A stretch of 64,000 nucleotides of DNA from Desulfatiglandales bacterium (GCA_963662465.1 OY759599.1:8097626-8161625), one strand, 5' to 3'. Shown: positions 7,680-26,628, counted from the first letter of the stretch. Translations and numbers: made by a program. Notes: generated by a model not told the origin, from the sequence alone.

Positions 7680-9332
7680 ATGAAAAACAATCAACCCAAC
7701 ATCGCCGTCATCGGCTCCGGCTACTGGGGCAAGAACCTCGTTCGAAACTACCACCAGATCGGTGCTCTCAAACTCATCTGCGATAAAAACGAAACCGTCC
7801 TCTCCAGCTTTCAAGAGCAATACCCCGGCGTGGACACCTGCATGGCCCTAAACGACACCCTCTCCCGAGAAGACATCCAAGGCATCGTCATCGCCACACC
7901 GGCCGAAACCCACTACATCCTGGCTCGGGAAGCCCTTCTTGCCGGTAAACACGTCTACATCGAAAAACCCCTGGTACTCAAAGAGGAAGATGGGCAGGAT
8001 CTGATCCGTCTGGCCAAAGAGAAAGATCTGGTTCTCATGGTCGGCCACCTGCTTCAGTACCATCCCGTCTTTCTCAAACTGAAGGAGATGGCCGCCTCCG
8101 GTGAACTGGGCCGCATCAACTACATCTATTCCCATCGCCTCAACCTAGGCAAAATCCGGCGCGAAGAAAATATCCTCTGGTCCTTCGCCCCCCACGATAT
8201 CTCCATGATCCTCTCCCTGGCTGGGGAAGAACCGGATGAGGTCATGGCAACCGGCGGCAACTACCTGCACAAAAGGATCGCCGACGTGACCACCACCCAC
8301 CTGGAGTTCCCCTCGGGCCTTCGCGCTCACATCTTTGTCTCCTGGCTGCACCCCTTCAAGGTCCAGCAACTGGTGGTGGTTGGGGACAAAAAGATGGCGG
8401 TATTTGACGACACCCAACCATGGGAAGACAAATTGCTGCTCTACCCCCATGAAATCAAATGGCAGAACAACATCCCCATCCCCTCCAAAGGGGAAGCCGA
8501 AAGGGTCGATATTCCTCAGGCCGAACCACTCAAAATGGAATGCGAACATTTTCTCCATTGCATGACAAATTGCCGGAGACCCCAGACCGACGGTGCCGAA
8601 GGCCTCCGCGTTCTCCGTATCCTGAATGCCGCACAACAATCGCTGGATGGTGACAGTGAGAAGATTGATCTCGCGCAAAGACGCAAAGACGCAAAGGGAA
8701 CAGAGAAAGGGGTATTGGAAAAGAAACCGACCACCGACCACCGACCACCGACCACTGATTTTTTTGCTCACGAAACGGCCCTTATTGACGATAATGTAAC
8801 AGTCGGGGATGGAAGCAAAATCTGGCATTTCAGTCACGTACTTTCCAACTCGACCATCGGTGAAAACTGCAACATCGGGCAGAACGTGGTGATCGGTCCG
8901 GATGTCACCATCGGTAAAGGGTGCAAAATCCAGAACAACGTCTCCGTCTACAAAGGCGTCACCCTGGAAGACGGGGTCTTTTGCGGTCCCTCCATGGTTT
9001 TTACCAACATCTACAATCCAAGAGCTGAAATCCGGAAGATGGACCAGGTACGTCCCACCTTGGTCAAACATGGCGCAACCCTGGGCGCCAACTGCACAAT
9101 CGTCTGTGGAACCACCATCGGGGAATACGGCTTTGTGGGCGCCGGCGCCGTGGTCACCCGAAATGTCCCTAGGCATGCCCTAATGTTGGGCAATCCAGCC
9201 AGAAGGGTCGGATGGATGTGCCAATGCGGAGAACGCCTCACCGACGACCTCGACTGCCTCACGTGCGGAAAGACCTATGAAAAGAATGAAGAAGGCCTAA
9301 AAGAAAAAATTAGACAGGATCAACAGGATTAA
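7680..9332 (+). CDS. Gfo/Idh/MocA oxidoreductase (WbpB/WlbA-like) fused to a hexapeptide N-acetyltransferase (WbpD/WlbB-like)
   Basis: GSGYWG, EKP and GH motifs, then left-handed beta-helix repeats with IWHFSH and GNPAR; linker encoded by tandem repeats. Confidence 0.9.
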
Positions 9333-9379
9333 CAAGATTAAAAACAAAAACAATCCTGCAAAATCCTGTAAATCCTGTC
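9313..9379. repeat. 9-mer inverted-repeat hairpin (ACAGGATTA x3 ... AATCCTGTA x3)
   Basis: Left arm 9313-9339, right arm 9352-9379; the right-arm triplet occurs 15 times between 9.3 and 26.5 kb. Confidence 0.9.
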
Positions 9380-9398
9380 TAAAAAAAGAGAGGAAAAA

Positions 9399-10490
9399 AT
9401 GCAATTCATAGACCTAAAAACCCAACAATCCCGCATCCGTCAAAAACTCGAAGCCCGAATAAATCATGTCCTCGATCACGGTCAATACATCATGGGCCCG
9501 GAAGTGAAAGAGCTGGAAGAGAAGCTCCGTGCTTTCATCGGCACCAACCACTGCATCACCTGTTCATCCGGCACCGACGCCCTACTCATCGCCCTCATGG
9601 CTCTGAACATCGGTCCCGGTGACGAGGTGATCACCGTCCCCTACACCTGGATTTCAACCGCCGAAGTCATTGCGCTCCTGAACGCCAAACCCGTTTTCGT
9701 GGACATCCAGCCCGACACCTTCAACATGAACCCGGATCTGATTGAAGCGGCCATCACCCCCAATACCAAAGCCATCATGCCGGTGAGTATCTATGGCCAA
9801 TGTGCGGACATGACCCGGATCAATGCCATTGCGGAAAAGCACAGCATCCCGGTCATCGAAGACGGCGCCCAGAGTTTCGGCGCCACTCACTACGAGCAAA
9901 AGTCCTGCGGTCTTTCCGCTATTGGCTGCACGTCCTTTTTCCCGTCCAAACCCCTGGGCTGTTATGGCGACGGTGGCGCCATCTTCACCCATGATGATGG
10001 ATTGGCGGAGAAAATGCGACAGATCCGCGTCCACGGTCAGAAGGTCAAGCATCAGCATCCCCTGGTCGGCATCAATGGACGTTTGGACACCCTGCAGGCA
10101 GCCATTCTGCTTGAAAAATTGGAGCTATTCCCCGAGGAATGCCGGCTACGCTGGGAAGTCGGGCAGCGTTACAATGAACTCCTTTCTGAAGTCACAGGTA
10201 TTAAAGCCCCCGTCATTTCAAAGGGAAACGATTCCGTCTATGCCCAGTATACGCTTCTAACGGAAAATCGCGACAAGGTATCGAATGTGCTGAAGGCAGA
10301 GGGCATCCCATCTGTAGCCTACTATGCCGTACCGTTGCACCTGCAGGGGGCATTTACAGATCTCGGTCATAAAGCAGGGGATTTTCCCGTTGCGGAATAT
10401 GTTGCGGCAAACTGCCTGAGTTTACCCATGCATCCATATCTCAGTCTGGAAGACCAGAAGCGGATCGCTTCCGCCATTGAAGATGGATGA
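9399..10490 (+). CDS. DegT/DnrJ/EryC1/StrS aminotransferase (WbpE/WlbC-like)
   Basis: MQFIDLK start, SGTDAL, EDGAQSFGA, SFFPSKPLGCYGDGG. Confidence 0.92.
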   Translation: MQFIDLKTQQSRIRQKLEARINHVLDHGQYIMGPEVKELEEKLRAFIGTNHCITCSSGTDALLIALMALNIGPGDEVITVPYTWISTAEVIALLNAKPVFVDIQPDTFNMNPDLIEAAITPNTKAIMPVSIYGQCADMTRINAIAEKHSIPVIEDGAQSFGATHYEQKSCGLSAIGCTSFFPSKPLGCYGDGGAIFTHDDGLAEKMRQIRVHGQKVKHQHPLVGINGRLDTLQAAILLEKLELFPEECRLRWEVGQRYNELLSEVTGIKAPVISKGNDSVYAQYTLLTENRDKVSNVLKAEGIPSVAYYAVPLHLQGAFTDLGHKAGDFPVAEYVAANCLSLPMHPYLSLEDQKRIASAIEDG

Positions 10491-10539
10491 TGGTCATTAA
10501 CTCAAAACCCATAACCCAACACTCAAAACTGATTTTCCA

Positions 10540-10606
10540 CCCATGCATCCATATCTCAGCGGTGAAGACCAAAAGCGAATCGCGGTCAGTATTGGAGATG
10601 GGCGAT
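10540..10606 (+). pseudogene. Duplicated alternative 3' end of the DegT gene
   Basis: Encodes PMHPYLSGEDQKRIAVSIGDGR versus PMHPYLSLEDQKRIASAIEDG in the intact gene. Confidence 0.8.
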
Positions 10607-10667
10607 GTAACTGTTTAACTGGGGTTGGCAACGTCTCCCATTATACAAGATTTGACAACGATCCTTA

Positions 10668-10696
10668 TTGACTAAAATAGCCGATATGTCTATAAT
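10668..10696 (+). promoter_or_regulatory. Sigma70 promoter of the TA cassette
   Basis: TTGACT-17 bp-TATAAT upstream of 10733. Confidence 0.7.
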
Positions 10697-10732: not shown

Positions 10733-10975
10733 ATGGACGTTACGGCGACAGAGTTGAAAAACAGATTGGGGAGATACCTGGATACGGCCGAGAGGGTTCC
10801 TGTCATTGTCAAAAAGTCAGGAAGGAAAAAGTCAGTCATCATATCCCATAGAATGTATGAGAGATTCCTTGAAATGGAGGACACATACTGGGCTCAGAAG
10901 GCTCGCGAAGCTGAAGAGGGGGGCTACTTGGGTGAGATTGAAACCAAACGCCTTTTGAGCGAAGAAGATGTATAA
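10733..10975 (+). CDS. Phd/YefM-family antitoxin
   Basis: VTATELKNRLGRYLD...PVIV.K.GR motif; overlaps the downstream RelE gene. Confidence 0.85.
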   Translation: MDVTATELKNRLGRYLDTAERVPVIVKKSGRKKSVIISHRMYERFLEMEDTYWAQKAREAEEGGYLGEIETKRLLSEEDV

Positions 10976-11243
10976 GCTGGATATCACCAAGGCTGCCGGA
11001 AAATTTGTCAAAAAATTGGATGCAAAACAATACCGTCAAGTATTATCAAAAATTCTGGAACTGAGAGAAGAGGCCGATCCCCATGACTCAAAGCAACTCA
11101 TCGGCAGCCCTGAGTACAGACGAGTGGATATAGGTGAGTATCGTGTCATCTATAGAGTTGAAAAAGATACTGTTAAAATCGCTGTCGTTGGCAAACGAAA
11201 CGATGACGATGTTTACAGAAGATTTAAAAGAAAAGACAAATGA
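10968..11243 (+). CDS. RelE/ParE-family toxin
   Basis: YRRVDIGEYRVIY...VVGKR motif. Confidence 0.88.
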   Translation: MYKLDITKAAGKFVKKLDAKQYRQVLSKILELREEADPHDSKQLIGSPEYRRVDIGEYRVIYRVEKDTVKIAVVGKRNDDDVYRRFKRKDK

Positions 11244-11488
11244 GTGTAATAAGGGAAATTAGAGAAGTTCTTGATGGGTCGATTTCTATCGATATGCCGG
11301 CAAGCCTGCTTCATCGGAAAGTGGAGGTGATTGTTATTCCTTTGGATGAAATCTCCAGTGATGATGATTTTAATGGGGAGGATACCTGGCCTTACGGATT
11401 TTTTGAGAAAACGGTCGGTTGCATGGCTGATGATCCTATTCGAAGGCCAGATCAAGGGGAGTACGAACAGCGGGAGCTTCTTGCATGA
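11240..11488 (+). CDS. Putative antitoxin of the downstream VapC
   Basis: Small acidic protein ending RPDQGEYEQRE; overlaps the PIN gene; homologous to 19131-19395. Confidence 0.7.
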   Translation: MSVIREIREVLDGSISIDMPASLLHRKVEVIVIPLDEISSDDDFNGEDTWPYGFFEKTVGCMADDPIRRPDQGEYEQRELLA

Positions 11489-11898
11489 GATACCTTCTCG
11501 ACACGAATGTGTGTATTTCGTATTTGAATAACCCTCAGTCACCCGTTCGTTTTCATCTCGAGCGCTCGGAACCAAGCTCCATATTTGTATGTTCTGTCGT
11601 GAAGGCCGAGCTTTATTTCGGCGTAATGAATAGTCAGTGGTCAGAGAAGAATCTGGAAAAGCTGGAAGTTTTTCTGAAGCCGCTTGGCTCTTTTCCCTTT
11701 GATGACTTGGCAGCTAAACATTATGGGGAAATACGAGCGAAGTTATCAAAAGCAGGCAAAGTGATAGGACCTCACGATATTCAAATCGCCGCTATTGGGC
11801 TCTGCCGGGAGGCGATTCTTGTAACACATAATACACGAGAGTTTTCGCGTGTGGAAGGCCTGGTTGTTGAAGACTGGGAATTGGAAAAACGCAGTTGA
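11485..11898 (+). CDS. vapC: VapC PIN-domain toxin
   Basis: YLLDTNVCI, ELYFG, D.QIAA and LVTHNTREF motifs. Confidence 0.92.
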   Translation: MRYLLDTNVCISYLNNPQSPVRFHLERSEPSSIFVCSVVKAELYFGVMNSQWSEKNLEKLEVFLKPLGSFPFDDLAAKHYGEIRAKLSKAGKVIGPHDIQIAAIGLCREAILVTHNTREFSRVEGLVVEDWELEKRS

Positions 11899-12537: not shown

Positions 12538-12689
12538 AATTGCAACAGCTATCGTCCCAACCTGTAGCCCATGGCCCATCGCCTAATACCTTTTCATTCT
12601 TCGTTTTCTTCGTTACCTTCTGTAAAAAGCCCTTAACAAAAATCCTGTAAAATCCTGTAAATCCTGTCTAAAAAAAAACCGGAGACCCC

Positions 12690-14447
12690 TTGATGCAACA
12701 ACACCAACCCAATGCAACCATTGACCACGCCTCCTCTCCTCTCGACGTGTCCACCTCCCCCAGCGGAGAGGAGTTCCCTTTGCCGCGGCCCGAGGACTAT
12801 AACCAGGAATTCAAGAGACTCAAGCAACTGGTGAATGAACAACGCCTCAAAGGACGGGAAATTGTCGTCGTCATGGGTGTCGGGTTTGTGGGCGCTGTCA
12901 TGGCGGGCGTGGTTGCCGACTCCGTGGATGGGGAAACAGGGGAATCCAGGTACTTCGTCATCGGTATGCAGCGGCCTTCTCCCCGATCTTTTTGGAAAAT
13001 CCCGTACCTAAACCGGGGCATTTCCCCTGTGGAGGCTGAAGACCCGGATGTGGCGCCCTTGATTCAACGGTGTGTACAGGACAAGCAGACCCTCACAGCC
13101 ACCTTTACCTACGACGCTCTGTCACTTGCTGATGTGGTGGTAGTGGATGTTCAGTGCGATTACCACAAGGAGAGCCTGGGGAATGTTCGTCAGGGACATG
13201 CCGACATAGAGGCGCTGGAAGAGAGTCTCAAGATTATCGGAGAGAAGATTGAAGCGCACTGTCTGGTCTTGATCGAAACGACCGTTCCTCCCGGCACCAC
13301 GGAGTATGTGGCTTTCCCCATCATAAAAAGGGCCTTTGAAAAACGCGGCCTTTTCCAGAAACCGACCTCCGACCTCCGTCCTCTGACCTCCGACCTCCGT
13401 CCTCCGACCTCCGACCTCCGAAAAACGGCGGAGCCGCTTTTAGCCCATTCCTTTGAGCGGGTCATGCCTGGGCGGGAATACGTGGCCTCCATCCGCGACT
13501 TCTGGCGGGTTTGCTCCGGTATCAACCAAGAATCCAGGGAGCGGGTGGAACTGTTTTTGTCCAACATCCTGAATGTAGATAAGTTCCCCCTGACCGTGCT
13601 GGACCGGCCCATTGAAAGCGAGACCTGCAAGATCGTAGAGAACTCCTACAGGGCCACCATTCTGGCATTCATGGACGAATGGAGCCGGTTTTCCGAGAAA
13701 AACGGGGTTGACCTCATCAAGGTCGTGAAGGCCATCAAGGTGCGACCCACGCACGCCAACATGATTTTCCCCGGTCCCGGCATTGGGGGATACTGCCTTC
13801 CGAAAGACGGAGGTCTTGGCGTCTGGGCCTATCATACGCTTATGGGGTTTGAAGATGACATCTTCAAGATCACCCCCATGGCCATCGACATCAACGATAC
13901 CCGTGCCCTGCATGTGGCCCAGTTGGTGCGTGATGCGCTGCGGAATATGGGACGGATAGTGGCCGCCTCCAAAATTGCGGTATTGGGCGCCTCCTACCGG
14001 GAAGATGTGGGCGACACGCGTTACAGCGGTTCAGAGATGGTCGTCCGGAAACTCACGGAGATGGGCGCGGATGTGGTGGTTCATGATCCGTATGTCAGCC
14101 ACTGGTGGGAGCTGGAAAAGCAGGATACCTATCCCTCTCCCGGCCATTCGTGGTCGCGGTTTTTCAGGAACCAGGAAAAGTTGAAGGAAACCGTTGTCCA
14201 AGATGACCTGAATAAGACCCTGTCCGGAGCCGATGCCGTTATTTTGGCGGTGAGACATCAGGCTTATCTCAATCTGGACCCGGATGGGGTGGTGGAAATG
14301 ATCGGTGGTCCGGCGGCTGTGGTGGACTGCTTCGGGGTGTTGGACGATGTGGCCATCAAGCGGTATTTCGAGTTGGGCTGCGAGGTCAAGGGACTTGGGC
14401 GGGGGCATATTAAGCGGATTAAGGATGCGGTCAGAGCTTCTGCGTAG
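12690..14447 (+). CDS. UDP-glucose/GDP-mannose dehydrogenase-family nucleotide-sugar dehydrogenase
   Basis: GVGFVG, ETTVPPGTT, KIVENSYR and GGYCLPKD motifs; in-frame heptamer repeat at about 13360-13420. Confidence 0.9.
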   Translation: MMQQHQPNATIDHASSPLDVSTSPSGEEFPLPRPEDYNQEFKRLKQLVNEQRLKGREIVVVMGVGFVGAVMAGVVADSVDGETGESRYFVIGMQRPSPRSFWKIPYLNRGISPVEAEDPDVAPLIQRCVQDKQTLTATFTYDALSLADVVVVDVQCDYHKESLGNVRQGHADIEALEESLKIIGEKIEAHCLVLIETTVPPGTTEYVAFPIIKRAFEKRGLFQKPTSDLRPLTSDLRPPTSDLRKTAEPLLAHSFERVMPGREYVASIRDFWRVCSGINQESRERVELFLSNILNVDKFPLTVLDRPIESETCKIVENSYRATILAFMDEWSRFSEKNGVDLIKVVKAIKVRPTHANMIFPGPGIGGYCLPKDGGLGVWAYHTLMGFEDDIFKITPMAIDINDTRALHVAQLVRDALRNMGRIVAASKIAVLGASYREDVGDTRYSGSEMVVRKLTEMGADVVVHDPYVSHWWELEKQDTYPSPGHSWSRFFRNQEKLKETVVQDDLNKTLSGADAVILAVRHQAYLNLDPDGVVEMIGGPAAVVDCFGVLDDVAIKRYFELGCEVKGLGRGHIKRIKDAVRASA

Positions 14448-14888
14448 GGAACTATAAATGTAAGAGTTGGCAACTCAAAACTCAAAACCCAAAACTCAAA
14501 ACTCAAAACCCAAAACCATCTTTGCTCTCTTCGTTACCTTCTGTAAAAAGCCCTTAAAAAAAATCCTGTAAAATCCTGTTAATCCTGTCAAAAAAAGAGT
14601 TATGGAATTATGAACAATGTCCCCCATTCCCCTCTATCTCACAGAGGATGACCAAAAGAAAATTGCGGCTGCTATCGGGGATAGACCATAGCCTAATACC
14701 TATCGCCCATAGGGGGAGGAATATGAGGGAAACCAGTGGCATTATGAACTGGGAGAGAAAGGGGCTGCTTACAGTGCCAATTTTGCCCCCAAAAATGTAC
14801 TTCTAAGCCCAGAAAACGCATATATTTTGGACTTAAATATTGAATAATCAATAGGATAGTTTGGTCAGACCCCAGACTGCAGCATGAC

Positions 14889-15743: not shown

Positions 15744-15837
15744 ATCATTAGGCTTTTACAGCTTAGTTTTCTTCCTTAACTTCTGTAAAAAGCCCGAAGC
15801 AAACATCCTGATAATCCTGTAAATCCTGTCAAAAAAA

Positions 15838-16615: not shown

Positions 16616-16682
16616 AAAATAAACCCGCTCACCCCTTTACACTATCACGGTAATCGGAAAATCGAAAGAAACGCATGAATGC

Positions 16683-18561: not shown

Positions 18562-18945
18562 ATGAACCAATCATTCGAACAGGAAATCCGGTACAAGATC
18601 CTCAAGATTTTAGCCGCTGAACCCCATATCGCCCAGCGGGAACTGGCCCGCCGGATGGGCATCAGCCTGGGCAAGACCAACTTTGTCCTGTCCGAGCTGG
18701 CGGAAAAGGGCATCATCAAAATCAAGCGTTTCAAGGACGCGCCCCAAAAGATTCCCTATTCCTACATGTTGACGCCCCTGGGCCTGGAGCAAAAAGCCAA
18801 AATCACCGCCCTGTTCCTGAAGCGAAAATTAATGGAATACGAAGAAATCAAATACCAGATAGAAGAAATCACCGAAGAACTCAAAACAGTCGAAAACCTG
18901 GGTGATTCAGACCTGCATTTATTGAAAGAAACAGCCAAAATTTAA
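18562..18945 (+). CDS. Second MarR-family EPS-associated regulator
   Basis: QRELARRMGISLGKTNF...YSYMLTPLG...FLKRK..EYE; TTGACA at 18525. Confidence 0.88.
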   Translation: MNQSFEQEIRYKILKILAAEPHIAQRELARRMGISLGKTNFVLSELAEKGIIKIKRFKDAPQKIPYSYMLTPLGLEQKAKITALFLKRKLMEYEEIKYQIEEITEELKTVENLGDSDLHLLKETAKI

Positions 18946-19130
18946 ACGGAAGACTTAAAACGTAAAACGTAAAACCTTTTCCCCACTTTCGTAACTCAAG
19001 GGGCGGAGCTGTCTGAAGCGGCAAGCCGCGGATTTAAGTTTTACGTTTTAGGGGGATAACCTTACAAACCTGCCAACGTCCCATTACGTCCCCCTAATTA
19101 AAGGGCGTTATGCTATTAGGATGAAGGAGG

Positions 19131-19726
19131 TTGCAGATGGAGACACAAACATCAAAAACAAAAACCTCTTCTTTGGAAGCCATTGTTCGCAAAACCATAC
19201 AGAGCAATTTGTTGGAAGGGATTATCGAAATTCCTAACAAACTTAGGAATCGTTTGGTGGAGGTGATTCTTTTGCCTGTTGTTAGTGAAAAACACAACGG
19301 TCAAAGTAATATGAAGTCAGGTTCCTCTCTGAAGCGCTTCGCAGGTGCATGGTCCGGGGAACAACTCGTCAGGGAAGATCAGGGAAACTATGAGGTCCGT
19401 TTCTTTCAGCTGATCCAGCAACAATTTGGCTTTGTTCGGTTGTAAAAGCCGAATTGTTCTTCGGTGCTCTGAAAAGTGTTCGAATCAAAGAAAACCTTCG
19501 GCTTTTGGATGAATTGTTTGCAAATTTCGATTCTGTTTTTTTTGACGACGATGCTGCTCGAAAATACGGCGAGATCCGTTCGGATCTTGCTCGGAAGGGT
19601 ACTCCAATTGGTCCGAACGATTTGATGATTGCGGCTATAGCTTCAGTGCATGAGGCAGTACTTGTTACGCATAACACCAGAGAATTTGCGCGAGTAATAG
19701 GCCTCACAATTGAAGACTGGGAATAG
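19131..19726 (+). pseudogene. Antitoxin-VapC pair fused by an internal deletion
   Basis: Antitoxin ends REDQGNYEVR; the PIN remnant lacks the N-terminal LLDTN but keeps IGPNDLMIAA and LVTHNTREF. Confidence 0.75.
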
Positions 19727-19915: not shown

Positions 19916-20001
19916 GCGTAAAGAAAGCCTGACCCCAGCAATAGAAAAAAAAAGATAAATCCTTGAAATCCTGTTAATCCTGTCAAAAAAAAAGGCTGAA
20001 A

Positions 20002-20217
20002 ATGAAAACTACCCAAGCCAACATCGCCTTCATCGGTGCCGGTGCTGTGGTCACACGAAACGCCCCGGCCCACGCCCTCATGCTCGGCAACCCCGCTCGC
20101 AGAACGGGCTGGATGTGCCGGTGCGGAGAACGCTTGACCGACGACCTGGACTGCCTTGCCTGCGGCAAAACCTATGAAAAAAACGAAGACGGCTTAAAAG
20201 AAATTAGACAGGATTAA
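20002..20217 (+). pseudogene. Internally deleted wbpB-wbpD fusion (5' start joined to 3' end)
   Basis: MKTTQANIAFIGAG resembles the WbpB start [20 protein letters not shown]...IRQD matches the WbpD end. Confidence 0.8.
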
Positions 20218-20369
20218 CAGGATCAACAAGATTAAAAACAAGAAAACAATCCTGCAAAATTCTGTTAATCCTGTCAGAAAACAGTTTTTTGTTGAAAAAA
20301 CCTTTCAGATGTGTATAAGAACTTGCCTTCTTTGTAAAGCATCCGGTAATATTTGATAATCTTCTTGAG

Positions 20370-20903
20370 ATGATGGGGTCGAATGCTGAAATTGTCTATG
20401 TTGATAAAATCGTTCCCGATGCTTACCATGGAACTGAGCTTAAAACAGCTCTAAAAATACTCAGAGGAAAGAACTTTATTCCGAGCAGAGGGAAAGAAAC
20501 ATATTTAGGGGATGGCGTATATTTTTACGAAAGCTCATTATGGCACGCCAGACAATGGTGTCAAAGGCGTTTTCCTGGTTTAAGACATGGTGTAATTTGT
20601 GCTGCAATCAATTTAAGGAGGTGTTTGGACCTCCATAATTACGAACACCGCAAGCTTCTTCAGCAAGTAAGATTAAACTTGGAAATGAAAGGTTACAAAA
20701 AATTAACCGACACTTTTTTGATAAACTTCTGCGCTACCAACATAAAAGAATTTGACACCGTTAGATGGACATACACCGCAACTGGCGGCAAATATGGCAA
20801 AATATATCCAGGATCAAGAATAGATGATTTTTCACAGCTCATAATTTGCGTAAGAAACCAGGAATCAATTCTCAGCATTGAACTGGCTGATGAGGGGGGC
20901 TGA
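20370..20903 (+). CDS. Putative ADP-ribosyltransferase-fold toxin (CmdT-like)
   Basis: AYHGT, YLGDGVYFY and terminal QLIICVR motifs; first gene of a triad ending in a SecB-like gene. Confidence 0.6.
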   Translation: MMGSNAEIVYVDKIVPDAYHGTELKTALKILRGKNFIPSRGKETYLGDGVYFYESSLWHARQWCQRRFPGLRHGVICAAINLRRCLDLHNYEHRKLLQQVRLNLEMKGYKKLTDTFLINFCATNIKEFDTVRWTYTATGGKYGKIYPGSRIDDFSQLIICVRNQESILSIELADEGG

Positions 20904-20905
20904 AA

Positions 20906-21178
20906 ATGGAAAATGAGTTAAGAGATTTCAGGCAAAAAATAGTTCAGTATTTTTCCGAAATAAGCGATGACCAACTCCGTAAAGATATGGAAAAGGCCGG
21001 ATATGAGGTTTATAAAAATGTAGATGTCCATATTTTGAGCGATGCTGTTTCTGAAGAAGAATTTACATTTTCGGTAAAGAGCAGAACAGCCCGGACTGCC
21101 TTCAACAAAGTAGACCTTAGGTTTCATAACGTTTTTACGCCAGACAACCATCCATATAATTTCAAGATTGCTGCTTAA
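20906..21178 (+). CDS. Putative chaperone-addicted antitoxin (CmdA-like)
   Basis: 90 aa; aromatic-rich C-terminal tail ending -IAA; lies between the toxin and the SecB-like gene. Confidence 0.55.
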   Translation: MENELRDFRQKIVQYFSEISDDQLRKDMEKAGYEVYKNVDVHILSDAVSEEEFTFSVKSRTARTAFNKVDLRFHNVFTPDNHPYNFKIAA

Positions 21179-21193
21179 AGGCGCCTTCATAAA

Positions 21194-21658
21194 ATGATGA
21201 CAAGTCAGGCACAATTCAAACACCATCCCATCTGTTTGAGGGATGTGCGGGTTATAGAACTATACATCAGAGGAAATATCCATCCTGATGAAATCAACGA
21301 AGAGCAAGCAGCGAGGAACTCATCAATTAACGTTGGTCATTCTGAATACGACACGGCAAACCATCGTATAGTTGTGGGTCTCACTTTAGAACTCAAAGAG
21401 GGTGAGGAAAAGGAAAGTGAATTGCCCTATTTCCTCAAGGTTGAATTAGCAGCCTTGTTCGAAGTTGATGAGTCTAAGTTCGACAAAGAACACATTTATG
21501 ATTGGGCCAGAAGGAACGCGCCATTTATTCTTTTTCCATACCTAAGAGAAGAAGCTTATGCTCTCACAATAAGGGCTGGTTATAAGCCGTTAATTCTTCC
21601 TCTTCTTGAAGTTCCTACATTTCAATCCGAAAGAATGGCTCCAACAACTGGACTGTGA
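21194..21658 (+). CDS. SecB-like chaperone
   Basis: NAPFILFPYLRE...LT.RAGY.PLILP matches the SecB C-terminal signature. Confidence 0.8.
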   Translation: MMTSQAQFKHHPICLRDVRVIELYIRGNIHPDEINEEQAARNSSINVGHSEYDTANHRIVVGLTLELKEGEEKESELPYFLKVELAALFEVDESKFDKEHIYDWARRNAPFILFPYLREEAYALTIRAGYKPLILPLLEVPTFQSERMAPTTGL

Positions 21659-21713
21659 GCAATTCTTTTCGCAAAAGAAATCCTGTAAAATCCTGTTAAT
21701 CCTGTCTAAAAAA

Positions 21714-22112
21714 ATGGAACAGGAAGACCTAACCCACAAAATCATCGGCTGTGCCTACAAAGTATATAACACCCTCGGCTTCGGTTTCCTTGAAAGCATC
21801 TATCACAAAGCCATGCTGATCGAACTTGCCGAAGTCGGGATGGTTGCCGAATCAGAAAAACCCCTGAAAGTCACTTACAGAGACAAAATAATTGGTGAAT
21901 TTTCAATAGACATATTCGTTGAAAATGAAATCATCGTGGAACTCAAATCCGTTGAGCATCTGGTGAAAGCCCATGAGGTCCAGGTCGTCAACTACCTCAC
22001 AGCCTCAAAAAAGGAAATCGGTCTCCTCATCAACTTCGGACCCACCGGAGTCAAAGTTAAAAGAAAATACAGAAAAAGTCTTGCACAGTATTTACAGGCT
22101 CAACCAGATTAA
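21714..22112 (+). CDS. GxxExxY protein (PD-(D/E)XK-like)
   Basis: GFLESIY, DIFVE..IIVELK, Q..NYL and GLLINFG motifs; flanked by 9-mer triplets at 21679 and 22123. Confidence 0.9.
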   Translation: MEQEDLTHKIIGCAYKVYNTLGFGFLESIYHKAMLIELAEVGMVAESEKPLKVTYRDKIIGEFSIDIFVENEIIVELKSVEHLVKAHEVQVVNYLTASKKEIGLLINFGPTGVKVKRKYRKSLAQYLQAQPD

Positions 22113-22323
22113 AACCAAAAAAAATCCTGTAAAATCCTGTTAATCCTGTCAAAAACAAATGCACTTCATAGATTTATCAGCCCAACAACAAAACACTTAG
22201 ACAGGATTTACAGAATCAACAAGATTAAAAACAAAAAAAATCCTGCAAAATCCTGTTAATCCTGTCTAAAATGTTTTTCACAAAATACAACAGAGCCAAG
22301 AAAACCTTTTCCCTTCGTTACCT

Positions 22324-22447: not shown

Positions 22448-23674
22448 GTGAACTGGTACTTGCTTCCTTTTCTGGAATGGCTTGCACAACACTGGGATCC
22501 CCTTCTGCATGAACAGAGACTTCCGATTAAGCACAGCGATGCCGGCAATACCGCATGGGCTTCTTTTCAGAGCCACTTCCAGCCCCCCATCGGTTACGAT
22601 CACGATCAGGCCTCAGAATGGGATACGAAGTGGGATGCCTGGATGACTCGGCACAGTCTCCTAATGGCCAGGGCCGGAGGACTTTTTCCAGATCTTTTCA
22701 TTCGGCGGTATCGCGATCAAATAGAACTATCATGGGGAGAGATCTTGCACCCCGGCGCGCCCCGGGGGTTCCGTTTTTGCGCTCCTGCCGGGTTCGTACG
22801 GCTACCGCCTTCCACGGTTTCTCAACCCCTTTTCCAATTGTTGCTGGGATCCGCCCAATTCTTAATGGGGCGATGCGTCGATTCACAGAGGATAAAAACC
22901 CTCACCCAGGCAATTCAGAATATTCCGCGGGCTGATCAAACACCGCGTCTGGCCTGGCTGGCGGGTTTGGACCTGCAAATCGGGAAAGCCATAGGCCGGT
23001 GGAATCGATTTGCGGAGAAAGTCTCCGGTACGCTGGGCGATGCGGGCAAGCGCCTTTTTTCAGAGAGCCAATGTCTAGAAAATATCGTTATAACAGGTTC
23101 TTGCGATGCAGCCATGATGTTCGGTTCTCTTGCGCCGACCATAGAGGAAGAAGATGTGTTGGCGATTGCTCGAAAGATGATCGAAGCTGCGGAGCAGGAA
23201 CAGCATGACGAATTATTGGAGCAAATGACAAGGCCAATTCAGTTGGATGACGATCCATCGCCCCCGTGGGAACAAGGCTATAATCTGGCCATGCCCTTAT
23301 GCGAGGACATGGCCGTCAGCCAAACCGGCAGTTCTGTTGATGTGGCAAACGTGCTAAAGGGATTGGGTATTCATTTTGGGGAGATTGCCTTGACAGACAG
23401 CGAGATCCGGGCAATTAGCCTTGCAGGCCCTCATCATCACCCGACCATCCTGCTTAATATGAATAACCCTACAAATCAGTACGATTCAGGCCGTCGATTC
23501 ACCTTTGCCCATGAACTGTGTCATCTCCTTTATGACCGAACATACGGTATGAAACTGGCGATGGCGTCAGGCCCGTGGGCGCCCAGGGATATCGAAAGAC
23601 GCGCCAATGCCTTTGCGGCCATGTTTATTATGCCCACCCATTTTAACTTTCATGAAATCATTGCAAACTCCTGA
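22448..23674 (+). CDS. ImmA/IrrE-family metallopeptidase-domain protein (ends possibly truncated)
   Basis: RRFTFAHELCHL...E.RANAFAA.F.MP motif near the C-terminus. Confidence 0.75.
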   Translation: MNWYLLPFLEWLAQHWDPLLHEQRLPIKHSDAGNTAWASFQSHFQPPIGYDHDQASEWDTKWDAWMTRHSLLMARAGGLFPDLFIRRYRDQIELSWGEILHPGAPRGFRFCAPAGFVRLPPSTVSQPLFQLLLGSAQFLMGRCVDSQRIKTLTQAIQNIPRADQTPRLAWLAGLDLQIGKAIGRWNRFAEKVSGTLGDAGKRLFSESQCLENIVITGSCDAAMMFGSLAPTIEEEDVLAIARKMIEAAEQEQHDELLEQMTRPIQLDDDPSPPWEQGYNLAMPLCEDMAVSQTGSSVDVANVLKGLGIHFGEIALTDSEIRAISLAGPHHHPTILLNMNNPTNQYDSGRRFTFAHELCHLLYDRTYGMKLAMASGPWAPRDIERRANAFAAMFIMPTHFNFHEIIANS

Positions 23675-24035: not shown

Positions 24036-24115
24036 CATCTTTGCTCTCTTCCTTACCTTCTGTAAAAAGCCCTAAAAAAAATCCTGTAAAATCCTGTAAA
24101 TCCTGTCTAAAAAAA

Positions 24116-24411
24116 GGTCCCGGTTTTTCAGGAACCAGGACAAACTGAAGGAAACCGCCGTTCAGGATGACCTGAATAAGACCCTGTCCGGAGCCGATGC
24201 CATTATTTTGGCGGTGCAACACCGGGCCTATCTTGAACTGGACCCGGCTTCTGTGGTTGAAATGACCGGCAACCCTGCCGCCATTGTGGACTGTTTCGGC
24301 ATTCTGAACGATGCGGCCATCAAGCGCTACTTTGAACTGGGCTGTGAGGTCAAAGGTCTCGGCCGGGGACATGTGAAACGAATCAAGGATGCGGTCAGAG
24401 ATTCTGCGTAG
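24116..24411 (+). pseudogene. Divergent 3' fragment of the dehydrogenase
   Basis: Same start junction as 18143, but a different allele (ELDPASVVEMTGNPAAIVDCFGILND). Confidence 0.85.
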
Positions 24412-24571
24412 GAAAGCATAACAAAAATAAATCCTAAAAATCCTGTTAATCCTGTCTGAAAAAGAGTTATGGAATTATGGAACAACGCCCCCCATTCCTA
24501 CGGGGTGCCAAAAAAACGAAAGGTTCACGAGTAAAGAACCAAGCACTTAGAAAGATGGAGGACTGTGTGTA

Positions 24572-24778
24572 ATGGCAAAATTAACACTAGAATATTGGGA
24601 AGACGATGGATGGCTTGTCGGCCGCCTGATAGAGGTCCCCGGCATTTTTAGTCAAGGCGAAACAATGGAAGACCTTAAGGAAAACATCCAGGATGCTTAT
24701 AAGTTAATGTTGGAAAGTGAACCTATGGAATCTTTCCCTAAACCACGTAATCGGATTCCCTTTGAGGTAAGGGTTTGA
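24572..24778 (+). CDS. hicB: HicB-family antitoxin
   Basis: WLVG...EVPGIFSQGET.E.L.ENI.DA motif. Confidence 0.85.
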   Translation: MAKLTLEYWEDDGWLVGRLIEVPGIFSQGETMEDLKENIQDAYKLMLESEPMESFPKPRNRIPFEVRV

Positions 24779-24960
24779 AGCGAAGAGAATTCATCCGTAA
24801 ATTGTCAAATGAAGGATGTTCTTTATATCGTCGAGGCTCCAGGCATGACATCTATTTGAATTCCCAAACCGGTAAAAAAGCACCAGTTCCAAGGCATCAA
24901 GAAATCAAGAATTCTTTATGCGCACTTATCAGGAACCAACTTGGACTCTTGAAAGAATAA
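24775..24960 (+). CDS. hicA: HicA-family toxin
   Basis: G.RHDIY.N....APVPRH.EI motif. Confidence 0.88.
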   Translation: MKRREFIRKLSNEGCSLYRRGSRHDIYLNSQTGKKAPVPRHQEIKNSLCALIRNQLGLLKE

Positions 24961-25063
24961 TACATGCCATCATCTATCACCCCTAACCTAACCTTATTGG
25001 AGGTAAGTCAAGCAGAGACCTTTATATTAGCAAGGATGTCCCACATTGCGAACTTTCAAGCGC

Positions 25064-25268
25064 CCTCAAGGCCAAAGACATCCCCTCTGTCGCCTATTAT
25101 GCGGTACCGCTTCATCTGCAAGGCGCCTTTGCCGATCTGGGTTATAAACCCGGCGACTTTCCCGTGGCTGAGCATGTTGCGGCCAAGTGCCTTAGCCTGC
25201 CGATGCATCCGTATCTCAGCGGTGAAGACCAAAAGCGAATCGCGGTCAGTATTGGAGATGGGCGATAG
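25064..25268 (+). pseudogene. Divergent 3' fragment of the DegT gene
   Basis: LKAKDIPSVAYYAVPLHLQG...IAVSIGDGR*. Confidence 0.8.
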
Positions 25269-25414
25269 GTACAGATAGATGTAAGAGTTGGCAACTCAAA
25301 ACCCAAAACCCAAAACCCAACACCATCTTTGCTCTCTTCCTTACCTTCTGTAAAAAGCCCTTAAAAAAAATCCTGTAAAATCCTGTAAATCCTGTCTAAA
25401 AAACCGGAGAACCC

Positions 25415-26329
25415 TTGATGCAACAAAAACAACCCAATGCAACCATTAACAACGCCTCCTCTCCTCTCGGCGTGTCCACCTCCCCCAGCGGAGAGGAATT
25501 CCCTTTACCACGGCCCGAGGACTATAACCAGGAATTCAAGAGACTCAAGAAACTGGTGAATGAACAACGGCTCAAGGGCCGGGAAATAGTTGTTGTCATG
25601 GGTGTCGGGTTTGTAGGCGCTGTTATGGCGGGTGTGGTTGCCGACTCAGTGAATCGGGAAACGGGGGAATCCAGGTATTTCGTCATCGGCATGCAGCGGC
25701 CTTCTCCCCGATCTTTCTGGAAAATCCCGTACCTCAACCGGGGCATTGCCCCCGTGGAAGCCGAGGACCCGGATGTGGCGCCCTTGATTCAACGGTGTGT
25801 ACAGGACAAGCAGACCCTCACAGCCACCTTTACCTACGACGCCCTGTCACTTGCGGATGTGGTGGTAGTGGATGTTCAGTGCGATTACCACAAGGAGAGC
25901 CTGGGGAATGTTCGTCAGGGACATGCCGACATCGAGGCGCTGGAAGAGAGTCTCAAGATTATCGGAGAGAAGATTGAACCGCACTGTCTGGTCTTGATCG
26001 AAACGACCGTTCCTCCCGGCACCACGGAGTATGTGGCATACCCCATCATAAAAAGGGCCTTTGAAGCGCGCGGGCTTTTTCAGATATCAGATGTCGGAGA
26101 TCAGCGATCAGAGCAGGTAAATCCCGAATCAGAGCCCAAATCTCAGTCCTCCTTGCCCCGTGAAATTCACGTCAGTGACGAACACAGCGAATTTCACCGG
26201 GGTGACCTCCGTCCTCCGACGTCTGACCTCTGTCCTCACCCGTGCCTTGCATGTGGCCCAGTTGGTGCGCGATGCGCTGCGGAATATGGGACGGATAGTG
26301 GCTGCTTCCAAAATTATTCCAGCGCTTGA
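25415..26329 (+). pseudogene. 5' duplicate of the dehydrogenase, broken at the repeat linker
   Basis: Near-identical to 12690-13355; different linker (heptamers plus hairpin), then an out-of-frame jump to the equivalent of about 13900. Confidence 0.85.
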
Positions 26330-26479
26330 ATCGGAGAAGCCGGCGAAAGATAGATGTAAGAGTTGGCAACCCAAAACTCAAAACTCAAAACCCAACACCA
26401 TCTTTGCTCTCTTCCTTACCTTCTGTAAAAAGCCCTTAAAAAAAATCCTGTAAAATCCTGTTAATCCTGTCAAAAAAAA

Positions 26480-26628
26480 GGTCCCGGTTTTTCAGGAACC
26501 AGGACAAACTGAAGGAAACCGCCGTTCAGGATGACCTGAATAAGACCCTGTCCGGAGCTGATGCCGTTATTTTGGCGGTGAGGCATCGGGCCTATCTTGA
26601 TCTGGACCCGGATGGGGTGGTGGAAATG
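26480..26628 (+). pseudogene. Internal dehydrogenase fragment
   Basis: Third use of the 9-mer/A-run/GGTCCCGG junction. Confidence 0.8.

What the first reader, a model, noticed from the sequence alone, without database searches (positions are those of the whole stretch)
9313..26628. A 9-mer triplet plus A-run behaves as a universal splice joint, shuffling gene ends and cargo cassettes
Seen: the motif AATCCTGY-AAAATCCTGT-WAATCCTGTC plus an A-run occurs 15 times in one orientation (about 9352, 12641, 14562, 15804, 17341, 18106, 19958, 20248, 21679, 22123, 22239, 24080, 24430, 25369, 26444). What follows it is interchangeable: DegT start (9399, 17388, 22159), dehydrogenase start (12690, 25415), dehydrogenase internal points (15838; 18143, 24116, 26480), wbpB start (20002), GxxExxY start (21714), or GAGTTATGGAATTATG (about 14597, 24464). 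Upstream partners are permuted too. Inference: homology switches at the motif, as at a recombination site, building a cassette array inside a polysaccharide operon with no integrase in the window. This is my best candidate for an undescribed system.
Basis: partly seen in the sequence, partly recalled or inferred. Interest (0 to 1): 0.9.

Follow-up and report, generated by a model that had tools for sequence, protein, structure and literature searches.

The report
Repeat arm that joins gene cassettes
A 27-base repeat that marks the borders of small accessory gene cassettes inside a sugar-coat operon turns out to be one arm of a hairpin repeat shared by many bacterial phyla and linked to a tiny nuclease gene, and DNA has repeatedly been swapped, gained or lost exactly at its edge.

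Summary
The triplet AATCCTGY-AAAATCCTGT-WAATCCTGTC plus an A-run stands 15 times in one orientation between 9352 and 26471 (11 canonical, 4 with one degenerate unit). What lies before and after it is permuted among copies.

The motif is not a local invention. It is the right arm of a palindromic repeat whose arms are three tandem ACAGGATT units. The exact 27-mer occurs in more than 116 places in genomes of many phyla, and 11 of 116 lie beside a GxxExxY (PF13366) mini-nuclease gene. One such gene sits in this array (21714-22112). This scan already holds 157 notes on GxxExxY-linked hairpins on other DNA; I found no paper describing them.

Here the arm fills the gaps of a wbpA / wbpB-D / wbpE module, and each accessory cassette (toxin-antitoxin pairs, GxxExxY, Bro-N, MarR_EPS, M78) ends with its own copy. 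A same-genus genome has three arm-bounded segments where this window has none. Blocks 97-99% identical between loci end 4-12 bases after the arm.

The arm therefore acts as a portable recombination joint, giving an integron-like layout without attC or integrase. The enzyme is not shown. Host homologous recombination is the simplest reading; stimulation by the nuclease is an inference.

The parts
9313..9379 (+). Full hairpin (left arm, 12-nt loop, right arm 9352-9379) between the wbpB/D stop and the DegT start: the 'empty' junction
   Evidence: fold -26.1 kcal/mol, z -7.8
12641..12668 (+). Single right arm (type B upstream flank) before the wbpA start
14562..14589 (+). Single right arm after the wbpA 3' flank with (CYCAAAA)n heptads; followed by the Bro-N cassette
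15804..15830 (+). Right arm with degenerate first unit, joined through the A-run to a wbpA-internal point (equals 13678)
17303..17368 (+). Full hairpin after the acetyltransferase ORF, followed by a DegT 5' fragment
18056..18132 (+). Degenerate hairpin; right arm joined to a wbpA-internal point (equals 14152)
19958..19984 (+). Right arm (degenerate first unit) before the wbpB start fragment
20198..20275 (+). Full hairpin after the acetyltransferase 3' remnant; followed by the SecB-like three-gene cassette
21679..21706 (+). Single right arm ending the SecB-like cassette; followed by the GxxExxY start
21714..22112 (+). GxxExxY / PDDEXK_3 mini-nuclease gene (132 aa; GFLESIY, D, ELK motifs present): candidate enzyme
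   Evidence: PF13366, E 2.5e-40; TIGR04256, 140.5 bits against cut-off 35
22085..22150 (+). Degenerate hairpin at the 3' end of the GxxExxY gene (left arm inside the coding end)
22190..22266 (+). Full hairpin directly after a 38-nt DegT 5' fragment (22159-22196)
24080..24107 (+). Single right arm (type B) joined to the wbpA-internal point
24430..24456 (+). Right arm (degenerate first unit) after the wbpA 3' end remnant; followed by the HicB-like cassette
25369..25396 (+). Single right arm (type B) before the truncated wbpA copy
26444..26471 (+). Single right arm (type B) joined to the wbpA-internal point
7680..9332 (+). wbpB/wbpD-like fusion (Gfo/Idh/MocA oxidoreductase plus hexapeptide acetyltransferase), intact
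9399..10490 (+). DegT-family aminotransferase (wbpE-like), intact
10733..11898 (+). Cargo: Phd/ParE pair, then an 82-aa ORF plus PIN (VapBC-like)
12690..14447 (+). Nucleotide-sugar dehydrogenase (wbpA-like, 585 aa), the only full copy in the window
14889..15743 (+). Cargo: Bro-N domain protein
15837..17321 (+). wbpA 3' part (93.6% to 13678-14422) and a separate acetyltransferase ORF (16683-17321)
18143..19726 (+). wbpA 3' remnant (18143-18489), MarR_EPS regulator (18562-18945), 104-aa ORF, PIN fragment
20002..20217 (+). wbpB start fused to the acetyltransferase end (internal deletion of about 1.4 kb)
20370..21658 (+). Cargo: 177-aa and 90-aa ORFs plus a SecB-like chaperone (a TA-chaperone-like trio is my inference)
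22448..23674 (+). Cargo: 408-aa protein with Peptidase_M78 (ImmA/IrrE-like) domain
24116..26628 (+). wbpA remnants (24116-24412, 25415-26329, 26480-26628) with HicB-like and 104-aa cargo ORFs between

Best explanation
The 9-mer triplet is the right (3') arm of a palindromic repeat. Each of its arms is three tandem ACAGGATT(W)(A) units. The family is shared by many phyla and travels with a subfamily of GxxExxY (PD-(D/E)XK) mini-nuclease genes.

In this genome (order Desulfatiglandales, inferred from a same-genus record) the arm is confined to a few polysaccharide / toxin-antitoxin islands. It occupies the intercistronic gaps of a wbpA, wbpB/D, wbpE module. Every accessory cassette carries one copy at its 3' end, so the layout is arm, cassette, arm, cassette.

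The arm works as a portable recombination joint. DNA segments are gained, lost and exchanged with one boundary at the outer edge of the arm, in the A-run just after GTC. The other boundary is often inside a conserved wbp gene.

The mechanism I commit to is host homologous recombination or gene conversion between paralogous and imported loci. It is anchored in a long stretch of gene homology on one side and in the 27-35-base arm on the other. Imprecise events delete into, or drag along, the neighbouring gene ends, and that yields the fragments. I think it likely, but it is only inferred, that breaks made at the arm by the GxxExxY nuclease raise the rate.

Shown: the repeat, its distribution, the cassette borders, the empty/filled pair, and the position of recent exchange boundaries. 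Inferred: the recombination pathway and any role of the nuclease.
For: 1. The repeat is real and clustered. 59 of 63 nhmmer hits (E < 0.01) lie in four regions totalling about 165 kb, 2% of the genome.

2. It reaches across phyla. The arms are conserved and the loops vary.

3. There is a gene link. 11 of 116 loci carry a PF13366-like ORF beside the 27-mer. Canonical left arm / gene / right arm elements lie after gyrB in L023 and L043. In G000, seven of nine PDDEXK_3 ORFs are bracketed by inverted arms of tandem units, with a copy-specific unit. The other two, including the window's, show an ACAGGATT-type arm on their 3' side only, and the window's also has one before its start in the same orientation. 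Proteins with ACAGGATT arms are 43-50% identical across phyla. They are 34-42% identical to paralogs with other arms in the same genome.

4. Partners are permuted. For example, the downstream wbpA-internal junction occurs with 4 different upstream types. The GxxExxY start occurs with 2, the wbpA start with 2, and upstream type B with 6 downstream types.

5. Empty versus filled. In same-genus G010, three arm-bounded segments (1431, 444 and 278 bp) lie between the wbpB/D hairpin and DegT. In the window the hairpin 9313-9379 abuts DegT directly.

6. Recent blocks end at the arm edge. Window 20025-22154 is 98.9% identical to G010 and ends 4 nt after GTC. Window 20035-21714 is 97.9% identical to 7.067 Mb and ends 8 nt after GTC. 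Window 13428-15842 is 97.0% identical to 7.085 Mb and ends 12 nt after GTC. The flanking wbpB/D genes are only 81-85% identical.

7. The left ends of these blocks lie inside genes (20025-20035, 13428). That fits one long anchor plus the arm.

8. Break-point enrichment is 19 of 103.

9. Small tandem duplications of flank plus arm also occur in other phyla (L024, L133).
Against: - No enzyme activity, cleavage site or circular intermediate was seen.
- About half of the fragment borders are not at an arm.
- Because the arm is the shared repeat, alignments must end at its edge whatever the mechanism. The edge position therefore cannot by itself separate site-specific from homologous exchange.
- 27-35 bases is short for RecA-dependent exchange (from general knowledge, not tested).
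- About 90% of cross-phylum copies are gene-less. They sit between ordinary housekeeping genes: 21 of the 24 upstream ORFs with a Pfam hit are ordinary, and 48 of 72 had no hit. The arm clearly persists without cassettes or a nearby nuclease.
- The window's GxxExxY gene lies between two arms of the same orientation, not inside a hairpin loop.
- The co-inheritance matrix rests on 11 proteins only.
Confidence: 0.5

Rival explanations
1. A dedicated, integrase-free cassette system. The arm is a true site-specific recombination or homing site. The GxxExxY nuclease (or an unknown partner) cuts at the arm's outer edge. Arm-bounded cassettes are then copied or inserted behind any other arm. This would be an integron-like platform of a new kind.
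For: - Cassette borders are exact and reused in different contexts, with only the arm shared on both sides: the GxxExxY cassette has upstream types U13 or U01 and downstream types D21, D32, D07 or D08.
- Three deletion junctions have one end exactly at the A-run (15838, 18143 and the 7.087 Mb variant).
- The arm sequence is exactly conserved across phyla while the loops vary, which suggests recognition by a protein.
- Arm type and nuclease subfamily are inherited together.
- Inter-arm segments of 82-3251 bp in the window resemble integron cassettes in size.
Against: - No biochemical or population evidence.
- Nine of 15 window sites are single arms.
- Most copies in other phyla have no nuclease nearby (105 of 116 loci).
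- The left borders of recent blocks lie inside genes.
- The internal junctions could be a few old deletions that were later copied.
Confidence: 0.25
2. The arm is chiefly an RNA- or expression-level element of operons, and recombination at it is a by-product of its being repeated. It could be a long stem that RNase III cuts, as in intervening sequences of rRNA, or that stabilises the upstream message. The A-run would then give the next gene an open ribosome landing site.
For: - In other phyla the hairpin starts right after a stop codon. The right arm lies about 45 nt behind the stop at many sites.
- The next same-strand ORF often starts 4-30 nt after the arm (72 of 87 sites have an upstream same-strand ORF and 60 of 87 a downstream one). 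Examples are pgk-tpiA and moaC-moaB.
- In the window the A-run is followed by ribosome-binding sites and start codons.
- The stems are 26 bp with two A-A mismatches.
Against: - Base pairing alone would allow covariation, yet both arms keep the same letters across phyla.
- Nine of 15 window copies cannot form the stem.
- Only 52 of 127 cross-phylum sites have an A-rich tail.
- No opposite-strand control was run for the ORF counts.
- Rfam has no match.
- No usable RNA data were available.
Confidence: 0.12
3. An integron cassette array without integrase (CALIN), with the hairpins as attC sites served by the genome's own IntI.
For: The layout is co-oriented small cassettes rich in toxin-antitoxin genes, each with an imperfect palindrome at its 3' end. 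Earlier notes of this scan report integrons elsewhere in this genome (not checked here).
Against: - The attC core GTTRRRY is not kept. The third unit reads TTAATCC or TAAATCC, and the arm ends GTC(T)AAAA.
- Nine of 15 sites have no inverted partner.
- No PF00589 gene lies in the window.
- The same arms occur as single intergenic hairpins in many phyla.
- I could not build an attC model from the genome's integron: self-BLAST of 3.354-3.411 Mb gave no recurrent 40-160-bp repeat.
Confidence: 0.04
4. REP/REPIN-like elements moved by an HUH Y1 transposase. The candidate is the IS200-like Y1_Tnp fused to a DnaA-type helix-turn-helix, found in the 7.0 Mb array.
For: - A 360-aa Y1_Tnp plus Bac_DnaA_C gene at 7,013,342 has the motif directly before its start. 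A broken paralog at 7,038,158 does too.
- A Desulfobacterales MAG copy (L131) shows the same.
- The 9-mer units recall 9-mer DnaA boxes (recalled).
- The strict one-orientation bias would fit single-strand transposition.
Against: - Other copies of this protein family carry their own different ends (ACGTTCGTCAG...CTGACGAACGT) and no motif.
- Four motif-rich genomes of other phyla have only distant Y1 relatives (21-35% identity), against 65-68% in the Desulfobacterales MAG.
- No such gene lies in the window.
Confidence: 0.05
5. Assembly artefact: the mosaic is a chimera of strain variants joined at a repeat.
For: Short-read contigs of the likely source run break at the arms, and several odd joints were reported.
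Against: - The genome is one 8.16-Mb contig.
- The same junctions recur in three loci of the genome and in an independently assembled same-genus genome.
- Unique cassette parts are covered by source-run contigs with 0-1 differences.
- The best-supported odd joint (23972 to 18448) is explained by a 43-nt repeat shared by both places.
Confidence: 0.04

Closest known systems
Integron cassette arrays, including sedentary chromosomal integrons and CALINs (clusters of attC sites lacking integrase)
   Same: Co-oriented small cassettes, many of them toxin-antitoxin pairs, each ending in one imperfect palindrome. The same cassette appears in different arrays. Exchange happens at the outer end of the palindrome.
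   Different: No attC core sites (RYYYAAC / GTTRRRY) and no IntI nearby. Most sites here are single arms. The arm sequence itself, not only its fold, is conserved across phyla. The array sits inside a biosynthetic operon and is mixed with fragments of the operon's own genes.
REP / BIME / REPIN elements with RAYT (Y1 HUH) transposases
   Same: Short extragenic palindromes in transcribed intergenic gaps with an orientation bias. Single and paired forms occur. They are known hot spots of rearrangement. A small gene is associated with the repeat.
   Different: The associated gene is a PD-(D/E)XK GxxExxY protein, not a Y1 transposase. The arms are built of three tandem 9-10-nt units. The copies are clustered in a few islands instead of dispersed. 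The same sequence occurs in many phyla.
Neisseria Correia elements and intergenic mosaic elements (NIME)
   Same: Small inverted-repeat elements and modular repeats occur between genes, often co-transcribed, and they act as recombination substrates that build mosaics. The arm even contains GGATTAACAA, like the Correia inverted repeat (recalled, not tested).
   Different: There is no consistent TA target duplication. The family is cross-phylum rather than genus-specific. It is linked to a nuclease gene.
Intervening sequences of 23S rRNA carrying small ORFs (recalled)
   Same: A small selfish ORF is enclosed by long inverted arms that would form an RNase III-type stem in the host transcript.
   Different: Here the host transcript is an mRNA operon, most copies carry no gene, and the arms also stand alone in direct orientation as cassette borders.
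Homing endonuclease genes
   Same: A small nuclease gene is inherited together with its flanking recognition sequences. The proposed spread by break-induced copying would work in the same way.
   Different: No cleavage is shown. The 'site' is a repeat present in dozens of copies, and cargo other than the nuclease is carried.

Membership tests
Integron / CALIN | IntI tyrosine recombinase next to the array (not required for CALIN) | tested here: not met
   0 of 58 PF00589 matches in G000 fall inside the window. The nearest is about 15 kb before its start.
Integron / CALIN | attC sites: imperfect palindromes with R'' RYYYAAC and R' GTTRRRY cores | tested here: not met
   Read directly. The arms end ...CCTGT(T/A)AATCCTGTC(T)AAAA, so GTT is not conserved. 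Nine of 15 sites have no inverted partner. No attC covariance model was available.
Integron / CALIN | Array of co-oriented cassettes, one site per cassette, with cassettes shared between arrays | tested here: met
   15 sites in one orientation, inter-site segments of 82-3251 bp, cargo ORFs on the same strand. The SecB-like and GxxExxY cassettes recur in G010 and at 7.0 Mb with other neighbours.
REP/REPIN with RAYT | Cognate Y1 HUH transposase flanked by the repeats | tested here: not met
   One Y1_Tnp-DnaA_C gene has the motif upstream. Its relatives have other ends, and motif-rich genomes of other phyla lack close homologs.
REP/REPIN with RAYT | Many copies dispersed through intergenic regions of the genome | tested here: not met
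   59 of 63 hits lie in four regions covering about 2% of the genome.
GxxExxY-linked repeat-armed palindromes (family known only from this scan's notes) | Inverted arms built from tandem 8-10-nt units | tested here: met
   Arms are three ACAGGATT units at 9-10-nt spacing. Six of 15 window sites are hairpins. Left arms are recognisable at 60 of 127 cross-phylum sites.
GxxExxY-linked repeat-armed palindromes (family known only from this scan's notes) | Gene-bearing members carry a PF13366/TIGR04256 gene between the arms | tested here: inconclusive
   Met in L023 and L043, and for seven of the nine G000 copies with other unit types or mixed units. The other two, the window's and 7,021,931, do not sit between inverted arms. 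The window's own gene (21714-22112) lies between two arms of the same orientation, with a degenerate left arm in its 3' end.
GxxExxY-linked repeat-armed palindromes (family known only from this scan's notes) | Arm type inherited together with the protein subfamily | tested here: met
   Same-arm proteins are 43-50% identical across phyla. Other-arm paralogs in the same genome are 34-42% identical. Eleven proteins were compared: a small sample.
IS630/mariner-type MITE (Correia-like) | TA target-site duplication at both ends | tested here: not met
   Flanks are often TA...TA, but many are not, for example gcaGACAGG...CCTGTCcga. This was read by eye, not counted.
IS91 / ISCR rolling-circle capture | Y2 transposase with the repeat as its ori or ter end | tested here: not met
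   The Y2_Tnp gene is at 52454-53788. The array ends at 26471, and beyond it there are only isolated single 7-mers, none near that gene.

The most novel reading that the evidence does not exclude
The ACAGGATT arm is the recombination site of an integrase-free, integron-like cassette platform that is run by the GxxExxY mini-nuclease and shared across bacterial phyla. The nuclease cuts at the outer edge of an arm. Host repair then copies any arm-bounded cassette (toxin-antitoxin pairs, regulators, the nuclease itself) behind any other arm. Operons that carry the arm in their gene gaps thus become landing pads and are gradually scrambled.
Probability: 0.25. Interest if true: 0.9.

Novelty: new variant of a known kind. 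Interest (0 to 1): 0.68.

Why it matters
If the arms are active recombination sites, this would be a second, integrase-independent way for bacteria to collect and shuffle small gene cassettes. It would give a first function to the widespread GxxExxY proteins, which have none assigned. It would also explain why toxin-antitoxin and similar selfish genes so often sit inside polysaccharide operons.

Even on the sober reading (host recombination at a dispersed repeat), two points stand. An exact 27-base arm is shared by many phyla and is absent from Rfam and from the literature I could search. And this locus gives a clean natural example of how such repeats remodel a surface-polysaccharide operon.

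Tried and rejected
1. Rfam. An E-value search of 6000-30000 gave only two chance matches to a plant microRNA family at 23803-24043, far below its gathering score.

2. Promoter and terminator scans of 9000-27000 gave counts no higher than shuffles.

3. Y1_Tnp-DnaA_C as the cognate enzyme was considered because. It was rejected as a general partner.

4. IS91 Y2 transposase and Transposase_31 in the window: no motif near them.

5. Integron attC. Reading of the cores was negative. My attempt to derive an attC model from the genome's integron region by self-BLAST found nothing recurrent, so no model-based test was done.

6. Public runs. All four runs laid are short contigs that break at the arms. 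They cannot show circles or order variants. The joint 23972 to 18448 in the likely source run is explained by a 43-nt repeat shared by both places. The other joints have short sides (21-60 nt) in repeats. I draw no conclusion from them or from uncovered parts. What the contigs do show is that single cassettes occur at 99% identity or more in other samples: the M78 gene within larger contigs of X3 and X6, and the SecB-like cassette in X4.

7. A retro-copy reading (cassette RNA ending in hairpin plus poly-A) was considered because of the variable A-run. It was dropped for want of any supporting feature.

8. The match of AACAGGATTA to a conserved 16S rRNA segment is recalled only and treated as chance.

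9. Literature (search listings only, nothing read). Six 17-mers of the arm gave 0 papers. 'GxxExxY' gave 3 papers, none with the term in title or abstract. 'PDDEXK_3 / PF13366' gave 2 papers, one of them the 2012 PD-(D/E)XK survey PMC3424549.

10. PDB sequence search with the GxxExxY protein gave 0 matches at E up to 1.

Full report
THE OBSERVATION

AATCCTGT occurs 41 times in the window against 2.44 expected from shuffles. Every copy lies between 9323 and 26470. They group into 15 sites of two or three units, all in the same orientation, each followed by an A-rich run. Eleven sites have three canonical units. Four have one degenerate unit (15804, 19958, 20248, 24430).

Three DegT starts, two dehydrogenase starts, one wbpB start, the GxxExxY start and the shared GAGTTATGGAATTATG module are all there. 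So are two different junctions to the inside of the dehydrogenase gene. At 15838 the A-run is joined to the base that equals 13678 of the full copy. At 18143, 24116 and 26480 it is joined to the base that equals 14152.

At 9313-9379, 17303-17368, 20198-20275 and 22190-22266 an inverted left arm (GACAGGATYAACAGGATTAACAAGAT) precedes it, giving stems of about 26 pairs (-20 to -27 kcal/mol, z -5 to -8.5). Two further sites are degenerate hairpins and nine are single arms.

THE SETTING

Pfam and NCBIfam place the array at the head of a polysaccharide locus. That locus runs on to a flippase, Wzy, glycosyltransferases and an epimerase. The core genes are:
- a nucleotide-sugar dehydrogenase (wbpA-like, 12690-14447)
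- a Gfo/Idh/MocA-hexapeptide acetyltransferase fusion (wbpB/D-like, 7680-9332)
- a DegT aminotransferase (wbpE-like, 9399-10490)

Between 9.3 and 26.6 kb there are further partial copies of these three genes, 80-94% identical to the full ones. They are interleaved with small accessory genes:
- Phd/ParE
- an 82-aa ORF plus PIN
- Bro-N
- an EPS-associated MarR (TIGR04176, above cut-off)
- a PIN fragment
- a three-gene set ending in a SecB-like chaperone
- a GxxExxY protein (PF13366, TIGR04256)
- an M78 ImmA/IrrE-like protein
- a HicB-like protein

All cargo ORFs lie on the strand of the motif. Inter-motif segments measure 82-3251 bp.

DISTRIBUTION IN THE GENOME

The window is the last 64 kb of a single 8.16-Mb contig. 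A profile of the arm finds 63 hits at E < 0.01. Of these, 59 lie in four regions: the window array, 7.00-7.10 Mb, 40-60 kb and 100-115 kb. The 7.0-Mb island has the same make-up: wbp gene copies and fragments among many toxin-antitoxin and similar small genes. Window 7001-16259 has a 95% identical paralog at 47.7-56.5 kb.

DISTRIBUTION ELSEWHERE

The 18-mer of the last two units is present in 9 of 41 genomes searched (G000 and 40 relatives). These include other genera and one other family of the order. A reversed control pattern gave 0.

The phyla include Verrucomicrobiota (many Chthoniobacterales), Kiritimatiellota, Planctomycetes, Chloroflexi, Acidobacteria, Bacteroidetes, Chromatiaceae, Betaproteobacteria, Desulfobacterales and a Heliobacteriaceae MAG. 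By my own arithmetic, chance predicts far fewer than one hit.

In these loci the arms keep their letters while the loops differ in sequence and length. A left arm is recognisable within 110 nt at 60 of 127 distinct sites. An A-rich tail follows at 52 of 127.

Most copies sit between ordinary co-directional genes. Of 87 sites with flanks, 72 have an upstream same-strand ORF ending within 220 nt and 60 a downstream one starting within 150 nt (no opposite-strand control was run). Of the 72 upstream ORFs, 24 had a Pfam family. Three were PDDEXK_3 and the rest were housekeeping enzymes such as PGK, MoaC, FolP-type and AhpC.

THE NUCLEASE LINK

This scan's earlier notes (157 of them; first met through) describe hairpins with arms of tandem 8-10-nt units that bracket GxxExxY genes. 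I tested that here.

- A profile made from G000's own copies finds a GxxExxY ORF beside the 27-mer in 11 of 116 loci.
- In L023 and L043 the full element stands after gyrB: left arm, gene starting at the arm's last base, right arm.
- In G000, seven of nine PDDEXK_3 ORFs are bracketed by inverted arms of tandem units. Each copy or pair of copies has its own unit (CGCAGAGA, CACGAAAT, ACAGATTA/GCAGATTA, ACAGGATT with ACACGATT). The window's copy and the one at 7,021,931 have an ACAGGATT arm before the start in the same orientation as the arm behind them.
- Proteins with ACAGGATT arms are 43-50% identical to each other across phyla, but 34-42% identical to other-arm paralogs of the same genome (11 proteins).

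The arm and a nuclease subfamily therefore travel together.

The window's gene (21714-22112) is intact and carries the GxxExxY, D and ELK motifs. It lies between two same-orientation arms, however, with only a degenerate left arm inside its 3' end. No solved structure matches by sequence. I found no paper on the pairing (listings only).

DOES HOMOLOGY SWITCH AT THE ARM?

Yes.

I clustered the 61 arm sites of G000 and of 100 kb of same-genus G010 by what lies before and after them. Partners are freely permuted:
- The wbpA-internal junction has four upstream types.
- The GxxExxY start has two.
- The wbpA start has two.
- The 'type B' upstream flank has six downstream partners.

The best single case is an empty-versus-filled pair. 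In G010 the wbpB/D hairpin is followed by three arm-bounded segments: the SecB-like cassette (1431 bp), the GxxExxY cassette (444 bp) and a 278-bp segment. Then comes DegT. In the window the hairpin 9313-9379 abuts DegT directly. At 7.067 Mb the same SecB-like cassette is followed, after its arm, by wbpA instead.

Blocks that are nearly identical between loci stop just behind the arm:
- 98.9% to G010, ending 4 nt after GTC
- 97.9% to 7.067 Mb, ending 8 nt after GTC
- 97.0% to 7.085 Mb, ending 12 nt after GTC

The neighbouring wbpB/D genes are only 81-85% identical. The cassettes are thus younger in their present places than the genes around them.

Of 103 clustered alignment end points, 19 lie within 15 bp of an arm end, against about 2.7 expected.

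Within the arm, the T/A choice in the third unit is linked to the presence of a T after GTC (15, 5, 8, 13; Fisher p 0.03). Both go with the upstream side, not with the downstream partner. This places exchange in or behind the A-run.

LIMITS

The arm is the only sequence shared by all contexts, so any mechanism would make alignments end at its edge.

The left ends of the recent blocks lie inside genes (20025-20035, 13428). About half of the gene-fragment borders are not at an arm: the ends of the DegT fragment near 17470, 18489, the wbpB/acetyltransferase fusion at 20025-20035, and 26628.

This pattern fits host recombination with a long anchor in a conserved wbp gene and a short anchor in the arm. 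The repeated order A, B/D, E of the fragments fits serial import or duplication of operon segments followed by deletions.

The deletions whose one end is exactly the A-run (15838, 18143 and its derivative at 7.087 Mb) show 2-4 nt of microhomology. They hint at breaks at the arm edge, but they are few.

RIVALS I TESTED

Integron. The attC cores are not kept and no integrase gene lies in the window. I could not make an attC model from the genome's own integron.

RAYT-like HUH enzyme. A Y1_Tnp-DnaA_C gene in the 7.0-Mb island has the motif before its start. But the family has its own ends and is missing in close form from motif-rich genomes of other phyla.

Assembly chimera. The same junctions recur in three loci and in an independent same-genus assembly. 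The public short contigs break at the arms and decide nothing. The one well-covered odd joint is due to a 43-nt repeat.

VERDICT

The motif is real, and it is a recombination joint in the descriptive sense. It belongs to a cross-phylum, apparently unpublished family of repeat-armed palindromes tied to GxxExxY nucleases, which this scan has met before on other DNA.

New here is its use as the border of a whole array of unrelated cassettes inside a polysaccharide operon. Whether a dedicated enzyme drives this, or only host recombination, remains open.

Noticed in passing
G000:C1:52,850-52,892 (paralog of window 12660-12680): In the 95% identical paralog a segment of about 38 nt with hairpin potential (CCCC...GAAAC / GTTTC...GGGG) is inserted inside the third unit of the arm, between CCTG and TC. 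It looks like a tiny mobile hairpin that used the arm as its target.
   Followed up: no
window 14597-14640, 24464-24500; weaker 17545-17590, 19060-19100; many in L001-L005: There is a second recurrent module, (GGAATAGT)x2-GGCAACGTCCCCCATTAC and variants. It sits near the 5' side of cargo genes or after their stops. 25 of 50 forward-strand matches to A[CT]G[TC]CCCCCAT in the genome lie in the 1.8% of the genome that holds the arrays, in the same orientation as the arm. It could be an operator, a promoter or a second joint.
   Followed up: partly
G000:C1 at 1,356,868; 1,433,345; 4,146,516; 7,803,799 (334 aa each): A multi-copy IS-like unit encodes an IS200-type Y1 transposase fused to a DnaA C-terminal helix-turn-helix. 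Its ends are ACGTTCGTCAG...CTGACGAACGT, and it is inserted at GGGGACGT / CCCC-like sequences, that is, into the module above. A 3.0-Mb Desulfobacterales MAG gives 31 matches to this family, many of them partial.
   Followed up: partly
window 14478-14520, 23975-24025, 25290-25320, 26365-26395: Runs of the heptad CCCAAAA / CTCAAAA stand before the 'type B' arms. Where four or more CCC tracts occur, the opposite strand could form a G-quadruplex, a structure known to start gene conversion in Neisseria pilin variation (recalled).
   Followed up: no
window 50359-51503: About eleven tandem copies of a 105-bp unit (94-98% identical) lie directly after a DUF6765 ORF (49925-50347) and before an IS91-type Y2 transposase (52454-53788) and a Transposase_31 gene (54514-55515).
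   Followed up: no
window 23754-23857, 6550-6683, 13350-13421, 54075-54275, 57430-57730, 58743-58868, 60399-60537, 63204-63423: Several short-period tandem repeat tracts cross-match each other and the 105-bp array at about 80-90%. One lies inside the wbpA coding region (13350-13421), at the point where two paralog alignments break.
   Followed up: no
G000:C1:8,082,299-8,082,784 and 29,353-29,838: Two tyrosine recombinase matches with the same E-value, score and 440-aa open frame lie about 19-23 kb upstream of the two 95% identical wbpB/D-DegT paralog loci. This suggests a larger segmental duplication or a mobile island around each.
   Followed up: no
L004 (G000:C1:7,062,702-7,064,946): A GxxExxY gene appears split by an insertion of about 1.9 kb carrying a 451-aa ORF without a Pfam family. 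An ORF of the same length lies at L002:4636-5991.
   Followed up: no
L002:18158-19461 versus L001:13342-14424: The linker of a Y1_Tnp-DnaA_C paralog is replaced by about 140 nt that end in the arm plus A-run, and the gene is split. This is an example of the arm inside a coding region.
   Followed up: partly
L114, L132, L133, L024 (other phyla): Tandem arrays or partial tandem duplications of arm plus flank occur at 112-bp, about 50-60-bp, 119-bp and 192-bp spacing. They show that local amplification around the arm is not special to this genome.
   Followed up: partly
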